13,188 nt of DNA from positions 1 to 13,188 of IMG/VR virus record IMGVR_UViG_2617270976_000003; one strand, 5' to 3'. The stretch is from a virus. Its lineage: Duplodnaviria > Heunggongvirae > Uroviricota > Caudoviricetes. Below, piece by piece: positions 1 to 10,846 of the stretch. The position numbers and the translations under genes were made by a program. Within the stretch, counting starts at the first letter, position 1, and the number at the start of each line of letters is the position of its first letter. The notes below the pieces were generated by a model. It had not been told where the DNA came from. It saw only the letters and a list, made by a program, of their open reading frames with translations, and made no database searches.

Positions 1-1
1 C

Positions 2-118
2 CAGAAAATCATTGATATGGCCATGAATGGCGTTGGATGCCGGGCAACAGCCCGCATTATGGGCGTTGGCCTCAACACGATTTTACGTCACTTAAAAAAC
101 TCAGGCCGCAGTCGGTAA
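2..118 (+). CDS. insA: IS1 InsA, C-terminal part only (5' end off-window)
   Basis: Frame from position 2 translates to [38 protein letters not shown], stop taa at 116-118; matches the InsA C-terminus as recalled. Confidence 0.85.
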
Positions 119-540
119 CCTCGCGCATACAGCCGGGCAGTGACGTCATCGTCTGCGCGGAAATGGACGAACAGTGGGGCTATGTCGGGGCTAAATCGCG
201 CCAGCGCTGGCTGTTTTACGCGTATGACAGTCTCCGGAAGACGGTTGTTGCGCACGTATTCGGTGAACGCACTATGGCGACGCTGGGGCGTCTTATGAGC
301 CTGCTGTCACCCTTTGACGTGGTGATATGGATGACGGATGGCTGGCCGCTGTATGAATCCCGCCTGAAGGGAAAGCTGCACGTAATCAGCAAGCGATATA
401 CGCAGCGAATTGAGCGGCATAACCTGAATCTGAGGCAGCACCTGGCACGGCTGGGACGGAAGTCGCTGTCGTTCTCAAAATCGGTGGAGCTGCATGACAA
501 AGTCATCGGGCATTATCTGAACATAAAACACTATCAATAA
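37..540 (+). CDS. insB: IS1 InsB (transposase catalytic part; expressed in vivo as the InsAB' frameshift fusion)
   Basis: 167-aa [28 protein letters not shown]...HYLNIKHYQ, which I recognise as the IS1 InsB sequence; it sits in the -1 frame relative to insA. Confidence 0.9.
94..100 (+). other. IS1 programmed -1 ribosomal frameshift slippery heptamer (A6C) producing the InsAB' transposase
   Basis: Sequence aaaaaac at 94-100 inside cttaaaaaactcagg, near the insA 3' end and overlapping the insB frame; this is the established IS1 recoding site. Confidence 0.8.
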
Positions 541-560
541 GTTGGAGTCATTACCTGTTA

Positions 561-1247
561 GTGGATGACTGTCCACGATGTGGATCACAAAAAATAGCGT
601 TTGATGTTAATGGGCTGAATTGCACTAGGGTTTACAATGCATTGGGCGGGGGTAAAACATACGAGTACGAGGTCTATTGTGTTTGCCGAGAGTGTCATAA
701 AACGACAATGTTTCTTTGCAGACCTTTAACGAAAAATAAAACTTTAGATGGCTATAATTGGGAAAGTGGAATATTCGGCTTAAAGGAAGTTGCAGAGGTT
801 GTTAGGCCTATATCACCGGCAGACTTAGCAGTAGAGGAGCCACCAGAGTTCTTACCTGAGCATATCAATAGTGCATATGAGGAAGGGGCGAAATGTTTGG
901 CTATAGGTTGTTATAATGCAGCAGCAACCATGTTTAGGCTTTGCCTTGATTATGCCACAAAAGGACTTCTTCCTGATGGGGAGCAAGGGCCTGCGCAAAA
1001 AATAAGGAGAAGCCTAGGGTTAAGAATGGAGTGGTTATTTGATAATCATCTACTGCCTGAAGCTTTAAGGGAACTAGCTGAATGCGTTAAAGATGACGGA
1101 AATGATGGAGCGCATGAAGGTATTTTGGATAAAGCTGCTGCTGAGGATCTTGAAGATTTTACCTATCTTTTTTTAGAACGGCTTTACACTGAACCTCAAC
1201 GCCTTATCGAAGCCAAGACAAGGCGTGAACAAAGAAGAAACAAATAA
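561..1247 (+). CDS. Cargo protein: N-terminal C4 zinc ribbon plus C-terminal domain with a GN..AH motif (DUF4145/HEPN-like?); candidate abortive-infection or defence effector
   Basis: 228-aa ORF in visibly AT-rich DNA between the IS1 end (555) and the portal gene stop (1256). Cys at residues 4, 7, 42, 45 (CPRC ... CREC) suggests a zinc ribbon. C-terminal ECVKDDGNDGAHEG (nt 1089-1115) resembles the GN..AH signature I associate with DUF4145-type domains. The start is uncertain: GTG at 561 is the first start after the IS1 end and the frame stays open upstream into IS1, so the native 5' end may have been removed by the insertion. Confidence 0.75.
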   Translation: MDDCPRCGSQKIAFDVNGLNCTRVYNALGGGKTYEYEVYCVCRECHKTTMFLCRPLTKNKTLDGYNWESGIFGLKEVAEVVRPISPADLAVEEPPEFLPEHINSAYEEGAKCLAIGCYNAAATMFRLCLDYATKGLLPDGEQGPAQKIRRSLGLRMEWLFDNHLLPEALRELAECVKDDGNDGAHEGILDKAAAEDLEDFTYLFLERLYTEPQRLIEAKTRREQRRNK

Positions 1248-8797: not shown

Positions 8798-9191
8798 AGC
8801 AGTGCCTTATGTCCGCAATAACCCGGATAAGCTGCATCTGTTTGTGGATAACGGTTCGCTGGTTGCCACGGGGGCCAGCTCCATGTCATGGGAGTACCGT
8901 TATACCCTCAACGTGGTGATTGAGGATTTCAGCGGCGACCAGAATCTGCTGATGGCCCCGGTTTTGCTGTGGCTGCGTGATAACCAGCCCGATGCCATCA
9001 ATAATCCGGCGTTACGGGAAAAGTTATTCACCTTTGAGGTGGATATTCTGCGCAACGATGTCTGTGATATCAGCCTCAACCTGCAACTGACGGAACGTGT
9101 GCTGGTCAGCACTGACGGAAGTGTGTCGAGCGTTGAAGCAGTAGCGGAACCCGATGAACCTGAAGAAATGTGGACGGTGAAACGTGGCTGA
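8760..9191 (+). CDS. R: Tail completion protein, P2 gpR-like
   Basis: Start placed at GTG 8760 (AGGAG 8 nt upstream); the ORF-track TTG at 8739 adds 7 non-homologous residues. FVDNGS, RYTLNVV, LLWLR.NQPD and LTER.LVS resemble gpR. Confidence 0.85.
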   Translation: MNKPQSLRHALNKAVPYVRNNPDKLHLFVDNGSLVATGASSMSWEYRYTLNVVIEDFSGDQNLLMAPVLLWLRDNQPDAINNPALREKLFTFEVDILRNDVCDISLNLQLTERVLVSTDGSVSSVEAVAEPDEPEEMWTVKRG

Positions 9192-9636
9192 ACTGCAGAA
9201 GGTGGACGACTGGCTGAGTGCTTTGCTGGCGAATCTGGAACCAGCCGCAAGAAGCCGAATGATGCGCCAGCTGGCGCAGGAACTGCGCCGGACACAGCAG
9301 CAGAATATCAGGATGCAGCGCAATCCAGATGGCAGCAGTTATGAGCCGCGCAGGGTAACAGCACGCAGCAAGAAGGGGCGCATCAAACGTCAGATGTTTG
9401 CAAAGCTGCGCACCACAAAATACCTGAGAACTGCCGCCAGCGCGGATTCTGCCAGCGTACAGTTTGAAGGTAAGGTACAGCGTATTGCCCGTGTTCATCA
9501 CTACGGTCTGCGCGATCGCGTCAGTCCAAAGGGGGGAGTCATTAAGTATCCATCCCGAAAATTGCTGGGTTTAAATGAACATACTGAAAATGAAGTAAGA
9601 GATTTACTTTTAAAGTATTTATTGATGAAAAATTAG
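9184..9636 (+). CDS. S: Tail completion protein, P2 gpS-like
   Basis: GTG start overlapping the R stop; 150 aa, as P2 gpS; DWLS.L..NLEP and ARVHH.GLRDRV resemble gpS. The last ~30 codons are encoded by markedly AT-rich DNA (see findings). Confidence 0.88.
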   Translation: MAELQKVDDWLSALLANLEPAARSRMMRQLAQELRRTQQQNIRMQRNPDGSSYEPRRVTARSKKGRIKRQMFAKLRTTKYLRTAASADSASVQFEGKVQRIARVHHYGLRDRVSPKGGVIKYPSRKLLGLNEHTENEVRDLLLKYLLMKN

Positions 9637-9641
9637 AATGT

Positions 9642-10172
9642 TTACGCTCTTAATAAACTTAAATAACTTTTTATGCTTTGGCAAAAAGGGAAAAGGTCTA
9701 TTTTAATTTTCCAGTTTTTTTTGTTTTGAACCCCAGAAGCAATAATAGAACCGTCCCAATATTTTATTCCATTTTTGCCGGTCTTTTTTGTTAACTCAAA
9801 ACTTAATGCGTGAATAATTTTATTGCAGCATTCGCGTATAGAATCTTTAACATGACCATCTATAACAAAAAGTATATTTTCATGTTCTTCAAATGCTTCT
9901 TTCTCAGGTGAGTAATCTGGGTTCCACTCATGTTCACTAGTGTCTTGGAGAATTCGTAGTTTTGTACAAAGGCTAATAAGATTGTTGCTAATGGTATATT
10001 CCAACCATCCGTTGTACGATAACTCCTCCATTTCAAATTCAGTTACTATAGAACCATCATATACTTTCTGTGTGGAATATATACGCTGTAAATAAAATTC
10101 AGATGAACAGCATAATTGCTCAATTATTCTTGCGTGTTCTTCTATAGCGTAATAATCAATTGGATGGCTCAT
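9642..10172 (-). CDS. Hypothetical protein of unknown function in a very AT-rich island; candidate defence or accessory cargo
   Basis: 176 aa from the ATG at 10172-10170 (MSHPIDYY...), with an AAAGG RBS about 7 nt upstream. The ORF-track start at 10211 has no RBS and overlaps the dyad element at 10204-10221. Stop is 5 bp from the S stop (convergent). No homologue recognised; contains RECCNKIIH (R113, N117, H121; nt 9810-9836). Confidence 0.75.
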   Translation of the reverse strand: MSHPIDYYAIEEHARIIEQLCCSSEFYLQRIYSTQKVYDGSIVTEFEMEELSYNGWLEYTISNNLISLCTKLRILQDTSEHEWNPDYSPEKEAFEEHENILFVIDGHVKDSIRECCNKIIHALSFELTKKTGKNGIKYWDGSIIASGVQNKKNWKIKIDLFPFCQSIKSYLSLLRA

Positions 10173-10203
10173 TCTTTTACCTTTCTTTGATTGGAATTGT
10201 ATT

Positions 10204-10221
10204 TGTGTCATTTACCACACA
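10204..10221. promoter_or_regulatory. Candidate late-promoter activator site (TGTGT-N8-ACACA inverted repeat, fits TGT-N12-ACA) between the cargo gene and V
   Basis: tgtgtcatttaccacaca is a perfect 5-bp inverted repeat and fits the P2-family late-promoter dyad. Caveat: its centre is only ~55 bp upstream of the V start codon, which leaves no room for a leader if the -55 rule holds, so spacing is atypical. Confidence 0.35.
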
Positions 10222-10267
10222 AGGACGTATTGATGCCATAGATTCAAGGTCCGTGCAACCTAACCCT

Positions 10268-10846
10268 ATGAACGCACAACTAACCGAAATCATGCGCCTT
10301 ATCACCAACCTGATCCGCACTGGTGTAGTCACCGAAGTGGACCGGGAAAACTGGCTTTGCCGGGTGAAAACGGGCGAGCTTGAAACCAACTGGATCAGCT
10401 GGCTGACGCTGCGTGCCGGGAATGCCCGCACATGGTGGCGACCATCGGAAGGTGAGCAGGTGGTGCTGCTGAGTCTGGGCGGCAATCTGGAAACTGCCTT
10501 TGCGCTGCCCGCTGTCTATTCGAATCAGTTCGCACCACCGTCGACGTCGGCAGACGCCTGCGTGACAGAACATCCTGACGGCGGCTGGTTTGAATACGAA
10601 CCCACTACCGGGCGCTGGTATGTCAGGGGCATCAAATCAATGGTCATTGAGGCCGCTGACAACATCACCATGAAAACCAGTGAGTTTGTACTGGAGGCTG
10701 ACCGCACGCGCATTAACAGCGAAGTGGTGATCAATGGTGGCGTTACCCAGGGCGGCGGAGCGATGAGTTCTAACGGGATCGTGGTTGATGCGCATCAGCA
10801 TACTGACGTCCTGAAAGGCGGCGACACAACCGGAGGCCCGGTATGA
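10268..10846 (+). CDS. V: Baseplate central spike protein, P2 gpV-like
   Basis: Start set at the ATG at 10268 (MNAQLTEIMRLITNLIRTG), which aligns with the gpV N-terminus as recalled; the ORF-track start at 10160 lies inside the reverse cargo gene and is rejected. RAG..RTWW.PS.GEQV....GG.L.TAF.LP.YS matches gpV. Confidence 0.88.
   Translation: MNAQLTEIMRLITNLIRTGVVTEVDRENWLCRVKTGELETNWISWLTLRAGNARTWWRPSEGEQVVLLSLGGNLETAFALPAVYSNQFAPPSTSADACVTEHPDGGWFEYEPTTGRWYVRGIKSMVIEAADNITMKTSEFVLEADRTRINSEVVINGGVTQGGGAMSSNGIVVDAHQHTDVLKGGDTTGGPV

What the first reader, a model, noticed from the sequence alone, without database searches (positions are those of the whole stretch)
9541..10267. Very AT-rich single-gene island inserted between tail genes S and V, carrying an unrecognised reverse-strand protein
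S and V are adjacent late genes in P2-type phages, with only the V late promoter between them. Here about 700 bp of strongly AT-rich DNA sits at that position inside an otherwise GC-rich, translationally coupled structural operon, and encodes one 176-aa protein on the opposite strand with its own good RBS. Foreign composition, opposite orientation and placement in a late operon are the signature of phage moron or defence cargo. I recognise no homologue for the protein, and as far as I recall the S-V junction is not one of the commonly cited P2 cargo hotspots (old/tin near the portal end; Z/fun), so this may be both an undescribed gene and a less-studied insertion site.
Basis: partly seen in the sequence, partly recalled or inferred. 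Interest (0 to 1): 0.85.

Follow-up and report, generated by a model that had tools for sequence, protein, structure and literature searches.

The report
Unknown cargo gene in P2-phage hotspot
A small AT-rich cassette between two tail genes of a P2-like E. coli prophage carries a conserved, lysogen-expressed gene of unknown function that is probably an anti-phage defence gene, and it sits at a swap site (P2's orf30 locus) that old P2 literature already records.

Summary
Window 9534-10254 (721 bp) has GC 0.32 against 0.57 in the flanks. It encodes one reverse-strand protein (9642-10172, 176 aa). The window is a Cartapus-like P2-type prophage; Cartapus is a prophage of E. coli LF82.

- The site is not new. 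P2 itself carries the nonessential, reverse-strand orf30 here, and older literature lists orf30 among three horizontal-transfer loci.
- The site is an operon boundary, not the inside of an operon.
- In a sample of E. coli prophages it is empty in 26 of 41. Otherwise it holds at least eight unrelated AT-rich single-gene cargos, including TIR and DUF2971.
- Each cassette includes the 3' end of gene S and its own late-promoter dyad.

The protein is real.
- dN/dS is about 0.1 and the AlphaFold model has pLDDT 90.
- R73, R113, N117, K118 and H121 are nearly invariant.
- It has no Pfam, NCBIfam, PADLOC or PDB sequence match and no significant fold match.
- LF82 RNA-seq shows transcription while S and V are silent.
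- Distant homologues lie beside Lit, Abi_2 and Septu/Gabija-type genes.

Best reading: an untested single-gene defence candidate. A degenerate HEPN-like RNase mechanism is only a lead.

The parts
9184..9636 (+). Gene S (tail completion / virion morphogenesis, 150 aa). Its last ~35 codons (from about 9527-9533) lie in the AT-rich block and diverge from empty-site relatives, yet still encode an S-type C-terminus.
   Evidence: Pfam Phage_tail_S 4e-42 covering residues 3-146. Alignment with phages 500465-1 and KP12. The blastn match to the empty-site reference ends at S nucleotide 350.
9534..10254 (.). Variable cassette at the orf30 locus: S 3' end + cargo gene + P_V promoter. 721 bp, GC 0.32 against 0.57 in the flanks. 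No terminal repeats.
   Evidence: No flanking direct or inverted repeats. Present at 99.2-100% identity in 22 of 5426 complete E. coli genomes and in 17 IMG/VR contigs, where the gene lies next to V in all 17 and S was also detected beside it in 15 (L043 ends inside the gene; no S match in L045).
9642..10172 (-). Cargo gene (CARTA_14 / LF82_787 / WP_000019234.1), 176 aa, soluble. Predicted helical bundle followed by a short motif helix, a beta-meander and a C-terminal helix. Family signature: R73, D77, R113-E-x-C-N117-K118-I-I-H121-A, G147, W154.
   Evidence: ORF and start. phrog_18838, unknown function. No Pfam, PADLOC or NCBIfam match. AlphaFold2 pLDDT 90.3. Conservation over 113 diverse members. 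dN/dS about 0.1. Transcribed in the LF82 lysogen.
10180..10188 (-). Shine-Dalgarno sequence AAAGAAAGG, 7 nt upstream of the ATG at 10172.
   Evidence: Read directly from the sequence.
10196..10222 (-). Candidate weak sigma-70 promoter for the cargo: TTGTGT (10222-10217), 15-nt spacer, TACAAT (10201-10196). It overlaps the P_V activator dyad. Inferred only.
   Evidence: Read by eye. It was not found by the consensus scan, which requires 16-18 nt spacing. Consistent with the low transcript level.
10204..10221 (+). TGT-N12-ACA dyad (TGTGTCATTTACCACACA), the Ogr/Delta-type activator site of late promoter P_V. It is centred 55.5 nt upstream of the V ATG and lies inside the AT-rich cassette.
   Evidence: Same geometry as the annotated P2 activator site (centre -55.5 from the V transcription start, which coincides with the V ATG). 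Every S-V cassette examined has its own sequence-divergent dyad 63-66 nt from the V ATG.
10268..10846 (+). Gene V (baseplate spike, 192 aa). Homology with empty-site relatives resumes at 10255, 13 nt before its ATG.
   Evidence: Pfam Phage_base_V 6.3e-18..

Best explanation
The feature is one allele of a swappable accessory cassette at the S|V operon boundary of P2-like phages, the locus that holds orf30 in P2. The cassette consists of an AT-rich replacement of the last ~35 codons of S, one reverse-strand cargo gene, and its own copy of the activator-dependent late promoter P_V.

Cassettes appear to be exchanged between P2-like phages by recombination in the conserved S and V sequences, not by transposition or site-specific insertion. 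This mode of exchange is inferred.

The cargo is a real, selected, soluble 176-aa protein. It is transcribed at a low level from the prophage while the surrounding late genes are silent.

Its most likely role is single-protein anti-phage defence (abortive infection or exclusion) for the lysogen. The most likely chemistry is nucleic-acid, probably RNA, binding or cleavage at the near-invariant R73/R113/N117/K118/H121 patch. This is possibly a degenerate HEPN-type site in which Cys116 occupies the position of the canonical Arg.

The reverse orientation, with no detectable terminator after S, would let late O-operon read-through run antisense to the cargo when the phage itself goes lytic. This too is inferred.

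My confidence by step: cassette and hotspot about 0.95; autonomous lysogen expression about 0.8; defence role about 0.55; HEPN-like RNase mechanism about 0.25.
For: Cassette and hotspot:
- Close relatives have an empty 68-bp S-V junction.
- In an evenly spaced sample of the 1039 matching E. coli records, 41 rows had both flanks. Of these, 26 were empty, 2 carried this cargo and 13 carried other cargo.
- Ten sequenced cassettes, representing about eight unrelated cargo proteins, all have GC 0.31-0.37, a left breakpoint inside the S 3' end and a right breakpoint 0-15 nt before the V ATG. Each has a private TGT-N12-ACA dyad 63-66 nt from the V ATG.
- No terminal repeats.
- P2 Orf30 occupies the same place and strand.

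A real gene:
- dN/dS is 0.09-0.11 and pLDDT is 90.3.
- The motif is near-invariant in 113 members that are 18-41% identical to the query.
- Cargo identity tracks S and V identity across phages (100/100/100, 98/99/97, 84/86/83, 58/76/85).

Lysogen expression:
- LF82_787 reads log2 5.1-6.0 in four of five RNA-seq conditions, while S and V read 2.3-3.3 in most conditions (V 4.0-4.3 at MB6) (S1 table of PMC9928086).

Defence role, by association only:
- Homologues outside phages lie directly next to a Lit-type U49 peptidase (PADLOC Lit 2e-23) in Aliivibrio.
- One lies next to an AAA_23 ATPase matching LmuB, GajA and PtuA models in Pseudoalteromonas.
- One lies two genes from a DUF2971/PDC-S31 gene in another Pseudoalteromonas.
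- Metagenomic contigs place a homologue next to an Abi_2 gene.
- Other cargos at the same S-V locus include a TIR_2 protein (PDC-S66, SpbK, ThsB hits) and DUF2971/PDC-S31.

Mechanism lead:
- hhalign against an Abi_2 profile aligns only the motif: LsLREaCNKIIHA against iSxLRELRNdIAH.
Against: - No experiment links this family to defence. PADLOC v2 has no model for it.
- The association evidence rests on about four independent non-phage loci.
- In LB overnight culture the gene is near background, and the authors did not score it as a moron. I could not confirm that the RNA-seq was strand-specific.
- The HEPN link is statistically unsupported. hhalign probability is 0.2-0.5% against DUF4145 and Abi_2 profiles.
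- The motif is R-x7-H, not Rx4-6H.
- Foldseek finds nothing in the PDB or BFVD.
- The proposed promoter is weak, has a 15-nt spacer and is not well conserved in the Salmonella allele.
Confidence: 0.5

Rival explanations
1. It is an accessory gene that benefits the phage rather than the lysogen's immunity. Examples would be an anti-defence (counter-restriction) protein, an anti-satellite (anti-P4) factor, or a modulator of lysogeny or induction.
For: It is carried strictly inside P2-like phages in Enterobacteriaceae. The function of P2 orf30 at the same place is unknown. P2-like phages are under pressure from P4 satellites (PMC9122126). Expression is low rather than strongly constitutive.
Against: It is transcribed from the repressed prophage, on the strand opposite to the late operons, with no early promoter context. 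Distant homologues sit in bacterial chromosomes next to Lit, Abi_2 and Septu/Gabija-type genes, not in phages. That is where defence genes cluster, not anti-defence genes.
Confidence: 0.15
2. It is a lysogenic-conversion or fitness factor unrelated to phages, such as stress, virulence or gut-colonisation functions, or a solitary toxin or addiction gene.
For: The host of the reference prophage is the adherent-invasive strain LF82. The gene is more expressed in the growth and macrophage conditions than in overnight LB. Most cargos at this locus have no recognisable function.
Against: There is no signal peptide or transmembrane segment in the sequence. There is no partner gene in the cassette. 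Expression inside macrophages (5.1-5.3 and 4.4-4.6) is not above the bacteria-only samples (5.1-6.0). The family occurs in marine Vibrio and Pseudoalteromonas, a Chloroflexia MAG and a Dokdonia MAG, which argues against a host-specific virulence role.
Confidence: 0.15
3. It is a structural or assembly component of the tail that the first reader did not recognise. That would make it ordinary phage machinery.
For: Its position between tail genes S and V.
Against: It is absent from most close relatives, which have an empty junction (26 of 41 sampled). In others it is replaced by unrelated proteins. It is on the opposite strand and is expressed while late genes are off. Only 2 of 50,697 phage records carry it, and both are Cartapus.
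Confidence: 0.02
4. It is a decaying remnant or non-functional ORF in AT-rich junk DNA.
For: A few truncated copies (133-158 aa) exist in the 90% cluster.
Against: dN/dS is about 0.1. The fold prediction is confident from only 15 sequences. There are 464 representatives at E<1e-3 with a near-invariant polar motif.
Confidence: 0.02

Closest known systems
Phage P2 orf30 locus (nonessential Orf30 between S and V), one of the three classical horizontal-transfer regions of P2-like phages alongside TO (tin/old) and Z/fun
   Same: Same position, same reverse orientation, a single gene of unknown function, placed between the end of the O operon and the P_V activator site. The literature describes the locus as variably occupied (PMC3091744 and PMC6823313).
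   Different: The proteins are unrelated (BLASTP E 0.22). P2 has an annotated terminator after S; none is detectable here. No cargo from this locus has a demonstrated function in any paper I read.
P2-like prophage defence hotspots: A-Q (old, tin and many systems; Rousset 2022) and Z/fun (Vassallo 2022)
   Same: AT-rich, rapidly swapped cargo inside a conserved phage backbone. Some S-V cargos hit defence-candidate models: TIR/PDC-S66 and DUF2971/PDC-S31. The same window carries a DUF4145 cargo at the A-Q hotspot.
   Different: In every case sampled the S-V locus holds a single small gene (176-301 aa). It is often empty (26 of 41), whereas the two main defence hotspots were never both found empty in a P2 genome (PMC13586616). 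The cassette includes part of an essential gene and an essential late promoter.
HEPN-superfamily abortive-infection RNases (Abi_2/AbiD/AbiF, DUF4145, HEPN toxins of HEPN-MNT pairs)
   Different: The canonical Arg is Cys116 (81% conserved), so the motif reads R-x7-H, not Rx4-6H. The motif helix is short and is followed by a three-strand beta-meander, which is not part of the HEPN core. Profile-profile probability is below 1%. Membership is not established.
phrog_18838 (PHROGs v4)
   Same: The protein matches this family end to end (E 6e-136).
   Different: The PHROG has no function or category. It only shows that the sequence was already in phage databases.

Membership tests
P2-like phage accessory cassette at the orf30 (S|V) locus | Located between the tail-completion gene S and the baseplate gene V of a P2-type late region | tested here: met
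   Pfam Phage_tail_S and Phage_base_V on the flanking ORFs. Same place as P2 Orf30.
P2-like phage accessory cassette at the orf30 (S|V) locus | Variable occupancy: absent or replaced by unrelated genes in otherwise collinear relatives | tested here: met
   26 empty, 2 with this cargo and 13 with other cargo among 41 sampled E. coli prophages. About eight unrelated cargo proteins.
Moron (prophage gene expressed autonomously in the lysogen) | Transcribed in the lysogen independently of neighbouring late genes | tested here: met
   LF82_787 reads log2 5.1-6.0 against 2.3-3.3 for S and V in most conditions (V 4.0-4.3 at MB6) in four of five conditions, and is near background in overnight LB (S1 table of PMC9928086). 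Strand-specificity of the data was not verified.
Moron (prophage gene expressed autonomously in the lysogen) | Own promoter and terminator | tested here: inconclusive
   Only a weak candidate promoter found by eye (TTGTGT-15-TACAAT, 10222-10196). The scan found none and no terminator.
Anti-phage defence system (any) | Protects cells or populations from phage infection when expressed | not testable with these tools
   Requires plaque and growth assays. No PADLOC v2 model matches, and no paper mentions WP_000019234.
Anti-phage defence system (any) | Enriched next to known defence genes | tested here: met
   Lit (adjacent), a LmuB/GajA/PtuA-like ATPase (adjacent), DUF2971/PDC-S31 (two genes away) and Abi_2 (adjacent) in four independent non-phage loci out of about seven examined. 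The sample is small.
HEPN superfamily (Anantharaman et al. 2013, PMC3710099) | Rx4-6H motif with a polar residue right after the Arg | tested here: not met
   The family motif is R113-E-x-C116-N117-K118-I-I-H121, that is R-x7-H. N-x3-H is kept, but Cys occupies the canonical Arg position. The paper does describe HEPN families that lack the Arg.
HEPN superfamily (Anantharaman et al. 2013, PMC3710099) | Detectable profile similarity to established HEPN families | tested here: not met
   hhalign probability 0.2% against DUF4145 and 0.4-0.5% against Abi_2. No Pfam HEPN-clan hit in any of 113 members.
HEPN superfamily (Anantharaman et al. 2013, PMC3710099) | Four-helix up-down bundle core carrying the motif at the start of the last core helix | tested here: inconclusive
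Transposon or integrase-borne island | Terminal repeats, target duplication or a recombinase gene | tested here: not met
   No flanking direct or inverted repeats and no second ORF in the island.

The most novel reading that the evidence does not exclude
The CARTA_14 family defines a previously unrecognised single-protein anti-phage defence family. It has 464 representatives in the 50%-identity library, the signature R73 / R113-E-x-C-N-K-I-I-H121 / W154, and a helical bundle plus beta-meander with no significant fold match in the PDB or BFVD. On this reading it works through an unusual Cys-substituted HEPN-like or otherwise new nuclease or sensor site. The orf30 (S|V) locus would then be a bona fide additional defence hotspot of P2-like phages, whose cassettes carry the end of an essential tail gene and a private late promoter.
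Probability: 0.4. Interest if true: 0.65.

Novelty: new member of a known kind. Interest (0 to 1): 0.5.

Why it matters
P2-like prophages occur in about a fifth of complete E. coli genomes here: 1033 of 5426 matched these flanks. They are a major reservoir of defence systems.

The two well-mined hotspots have yielded many systems. The orf30 locus has been known as variable for twenty years, yet I found no functional test of any of its cargos.

This work gives three things:
- A concrete, conserved, lysogen-expressed candidate with a clear mutational target list.
- A short catalogue of other S-V cargos for the same screen: TIR, DUF2971, DUF6216 (present in E. coli B derivatives) and several proteins with no match.
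- An architectural rule that makes a census of the locus easy to automate: S 3' end + cargo + private P_V dyad.

If the protein is active, it would add a family with no recognisable domain to the defence catalogue.

Tried and rejected
- Sequence libraries gave nothing for the cargo or for 113 family members: Pfam, NCBIfam, PADLOC and PDB sequences by single sequence and by profile. PHROGs gave only an unnamed family.
- HEPN homology was tested by hhalign against DUF4145 and Abi_2 profiles built for the purpose. It was not significant, so it is kept only as a motif-level lead.
- P2 Orf30 is not a homologue.
- The 189-aa start at 10211 was rejected. The extension is not conserved in the Enterobacter allele, it overlaps the P_V dyad, and all homologues start at MSHPI.
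- Transposon or integron-type insertion was rejected because there are no repeats.
- No terminator or stable hairpin between S and the cargo.
- No Rfam family anywhere in the window.
- The search for related loci with the broad alignment A3 failed for lack of a conserved block. The narrower A2 was used instead.
- Literature search for the protein accession returned nothing.
Full report
WHAT THE WINDOW IS

The S-V region of the window is 100% identical to Escherichia phage Cartapus (OV696611 / NC_070909; Peduoviridae, Elveevirus). Cartapus is a P2-like prophage of the adherent-invasive E. coli LF82. Window coordinate equals record coordinate plus 387.

The window is not LF82 itself. Its first 555 bases are the 3' part of an IS1 element, which interrupts the first codons of the DUF4145 gene next to the portal gene.

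CHECK OF THE OBSERVATION

The compositional break is real and sharp. GC is 0.28-0.36 in 300-nt windows between 9451 and 10200, against 0.51-0.63 from about 1350 to the window's end; the only other low stretch (0.41-0.45 at 451-1500) is the DUF4145 cargo near the portal gene.

Alignment with two relatives that lack the block (phage 500465-1 and Klebsiella phage KP12) and blastn against that empty site define the non-homologous stretch as 9534-10254. It is 721 bp with GC 0.32, and the flanks are at 0.57.

The stretch contains one credible ORF, on the reverse strand. The first ATG is at 10211 (189 aa). The conserved start is the ATG at 10172 (176 aa), preceded by AAAGAAAGG. Every homologue begins MSHPI there, and the upstream extension is not conserved in the Enterobacter allele.

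One correction to the finding's coordinates is needed. The left edge of the foreign block lies inside gene S, at about codon 115 of 150. The last ~35 codons of S are AT-rich and diverged. They still encode an S-type C-terminus, because the Pfam match runs to residue 146.

THE SITE

That is not so for P2 itself. The P2 record places the nonessential Orf30 (261 aa, reverse strand) between S and V. A putative terminator for the O operon lies after S. The P_V activator-binding site lies before V, and the V transcription start coincides with the V ATG. The site is therefore an operon boundary.

Lynch et al. 2010 (PMC3091744), citing Nilsson and Haggard-Ljungquist, name the TO region, the Z region and orf30 as the three loci where P2-like phages carry horizontally acquired genes. 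Phage R18C has yet another ORF here (PMC6823313).

The recent defence-hotspot papers concentrate elsewhere:
- Rousset 2022 (PMC9122126) treats the A-Q locus.
- Vassallo 2022 (PMC9519451) adds Z/fun.
- iLund4u (10.1101/2024.10.15.618418) adds a tail-to-CI locus.
- NAR 2026 (PMC13586616) only lumps 'within the tail genes / downstream of GpL'.

I measured occupancy directly. The S and V flanks match 1033 of 5426 complete E. coli genomes. In an evenly spaced sample of 60 of the 1039 matching records, 41 rows had both flanks joined:
- 26 were empty (626-632 bp span);
- 2 carried the Cartapus cargo;
- 13 carried other cargo.

PGAP names the other cargos as DUF6216 family (including E. coli B derivatives), TIR-domain protein, DUF2971 protein, or hypothetical.

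I fetched nine of these loci. Their cargos are mutually unrelated proteins of 232-301 aa. Eight of the nine are on the reverse strand. Hits were:
- TIR_2 with PDC-S66, SpbK and ThsB models;
- DUF2971 with PDC-S31;
- DUF6216;
- the rest had no match.

ARCHITECTURE OF THE CASSETTES

In all ten E. coli cassettes compared with the empty site, four features hold:
- the island has GC 0.31-0.37 against flanks of 0.55-0.59;
- the left breakpoint lies in the S 3' end (nucleotides 350-447 of 447);
- the right breakpoint lies 0-15 nt before the V ATG;
- each island carries its own sequence-divergent TGT-N12-ACA dyad 63-66 nt upstream of the V ATG.

The Salmonella and Enterobacter alleles of the Cartapus cargo fit the same pattern, with left breakpoints at nucleotides 334-335.

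In Cartapus the dyad is TGTGTCATTTACCACACA at 10204-10221, centred 55.5 nt before the V ATG. This is the same geometry as the annotated P2 site. The Salmonella and Enterobacter alleles of the same cargo keep the dyad with different sequences.

The island has no terminal direct or inverted repeats.

I infer that the exchanged unit is 'S 3' end + cargo + P_V promoter', swapped by recombination in the conserved S and V sequences of co-resident P2-like phages. I also infer that these cassettes have lived in P2-like phages for a long time. The essential promoter inside them has been maintained in function while drifting in sequence.

THE CARGO PROTEIN

It is annotated only as 'hypothetical protein' (CARTA_14, LF82_787, WP_000019234.1). 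It matches phrog_18838, which has no function. It matches no Pfam, PADLOC or NCBIfam model.

Distribution:
- Among 50,697 phage records, only the two Cartapus entries encode it.
- The island is in 22 of 5426 E. coli genomes.
- The exact protein was seen on at least 1000 contigs, and its 90% cluster includes Salmonella-labelled members.
- Alleles 84%, 74% and 58-61% identical occur in other P2-like prophages, always next to V and, wherever S was detectable, between S and V: L004 to L006, and all 17 IMG/VR hits next to V with S detected in 15.
- Cargo identity tracks that of S and V.

dN/dS is 0.11 and 0.09, so the gene is under purifying selection.

A word-indexed search of 5.8 billion proteins found only 16 clusters. 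An exhaustive profile search of 1.84 billion representatives found 464 at E<1e-3. None of the 113 diverse members scanned has a consistent Pfam or NCBIfam hit.

Across those members, which are 18-41% identical to the query, the near-invariant residues are R73 (99%), D77 (88%), R113 (95%), N117 (99%), K118 (97%), H121 (99%), G147 (97%) and W154 (99%). H3, E114 and C116 are at about 80%.

AlphaFold2 gives a confident model from a 15-sequence alignment: pLDDT 90.3 and pTM 0.86. The secondary structure is helices 7-21, 24-34, 45-78 and 89-95, a strand 101-105, the motif helix 112-120, three strands (124-131, 137-149, 152-159) and a C-terminal helix 160-175.

Fold comparisons:
- Foldseek finds nothing in the PDB or BFVD.

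EXPRESSION

The S1 table of Misson et al. 2023 (PMC9928086) lists LF82_787/CARTA_14 in log2(fpkm+5). Values are 3.5 and 2.7 in overnight LB, and 5.1-6.0 or 4.4-5.3 in the four other conditions. S, V, W and J stay at 2.3-3.3 in most conditions, with V reaching 4.0-4.3 at MB6.

The gene is therefore transcribed from the prophage independently of the late genes. It fell below the authors' five-fold moron threshold in LB, and they listed only CARTA_32 and CARTA_47 as Cartapus morons. I could not verify that the data are strand-specific.

By eye there is a weak promoter candidate on the minus strand: TTGTGT, 15 nt, TACAAT, at 10222-10196. It overlaps the P_V dyad. The consensus scan did not report it.

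No terminator-like hairpin separates the convergent S and cargo genes. Late O-operon transcription probably runs antisense through the cargo. This is inference.

CONTEXT OF DISTANT HOMOLOGUES

Outside Enterobacteriaceae the gene is not in P2-like phages. The representative-genome scan found it in Aliivibrio, Vibrio, two Pseudoalteromonas, a Chloroflexia MAG and a Dokdonia MAG.

It is AT-rich everywhere (GC 0.34-0.38), including on a Chloroflexia contig with GC 0.56.

Its neighbours are:
- a Lit-type U49 peptidase directly upstream in Aliivibrio (PADLOC Lit 2.3e-23);
- a DUF2971/PDC-S31 gene two genes upstream in one Pseudoalteromonas;
- an AAA_23 ATPase matching LmuB, GajA and PtuA models directly downstream in the other Pseudoalteromonas;
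- an Abi_2 gene directly adjacent in three of four related metagenomic contigs;
- an AlpA-bearing element in another contig.

No partner gene is conserved, so the protein acts alone or with host factors.

MECHANISM

Shown: the cassette structure, selection on the protein, a confident fold, a polar near-invariant patch, lysogen transcription, and neighbourhood with defence genes.

Inferred: that the protein defends the lysogen against other phages, and that the R/N/K/H patch binds or cleaves nucleic acid.

The HEPN idea rests on a motif resemblance. hhalign against an Abi_2 profile aligns only LsLREaCNKIIHA with iSxLRELRNdIAH. This places Cys116 at the canonical Arg, and it keeps the upstream Arg-Glu, the Asn and the His. 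The probabilities are 0.4-0.5%. Against DUF4145 the probability is 0.2%. The strict Rx4-6H criterion of Anantharaman et al. (PMC3710099) is not met. I therefore do not file the protein as HEPN. I rate 'HEPN-like RNase' at about 0.25, 'defence of some kind' at about 0.55, and the cassette and hotspot description at about 0.95.

NOVELTY AND VERDICT

The locus is known as variable, and the phenomenon (AT-rich prophage cargo, probably defensive) is a known kind. The protein family is uncharacterised and absent from the domain and defence libraries I could query. The regular cassette architecture, with a private late promoter, was not described in the papers I read. This is a good candidate for a defence screen rather than a conceptual surprise: interest 0.5.

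Noticed in passing
window 1-555 (ORF 37-540): This is the 3' part of an IS1 element: InsB, PF03400 at 5.9e-78, with the IS1 end GTTGGAGTCATTACC at 541-555. Compared with the Cartapus record, it is inserted after codon 2-3 of the DUF4145 gene. It removes that gene's start codon, RBS and promoter and displaces the cos region out of the window. The window therefore comes from a Cartapus-like prophage of another strain, not from LF82.
   Followed up: yes
window 561-1247 (+): A second AT-richer cargo (GC about 0.42) sits at the classical A-Q (old/tin) hotspot next to the portal gene. It is a zinc-ribbon plus DUF4145 (HEPN-clan) protein with an invariant K-x2-G-N-D-G-A-H motif. It gives a weak PADLOC PD-T7-4 hit (1.2e-6) and matches phrog_1305. 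In LF82 its transcript rises from log2 4.7 (LB) to 9.6 (macrophage samples). Here it is cut off from its promoter by IS1.
   Followed up: partly
L015-L023 (E. coli prophages), S-V interval: The same S-V locus holds other single-gene cargos. These are a TIR_2 protein (PDC-S66/SpbK/ThsB-like; forward strand), a DUF2971/PDC-S31 protein, a DUF6216 protein (also in E. coli B derivatives such as NEBExpress), and at least four proteins with no family match. All have GC 0.31-0.37.
   Followed up: partly
window 10204-10221 and the equivalent sites in L004, L006, L015-L023: Every S-V cassette carries its own sequence-divergent TGT-N12-ACA activator dyad at a fixed 63-66 nt from the V ATG. The essential late promoter P_V is thus part of the variable DNA. 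As annotated for P2, the geometry implies a leaderless V mRNA, with the transcription start at the ATG.
   Followed up: partly
L026 6430-7299 and L016 640-1509: DUF2971/PDC-S31 appears both as an S-V cargo in an E. coli P2-like prophage and two genes from the CARTA_14 homologue in a Pseudoalteromonas chromosome. This suggests that the phage locus and bacterial defence islands draw on a common gene pool.
   Followed up: no
L028 8001-8546 (Chloroflexia MAG), L007, L024-L027: Genes of this family are AT-rich wherever they are found (GC 0.34-0.38), including 0.38 on a contig with GC 0.56. That points to recent transfer or a compositional constraint on the gene itself.
   Followed up: no
window 9634-9644: The convergent S and cargo genes stop 5 bp apart with no terminator-like hairpin (RNA fold z-score +1.0). 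P2, by contrast, has an annotated terminator after S. Late transcription may therefore run antisense through the cargo.
   Followed up: partly
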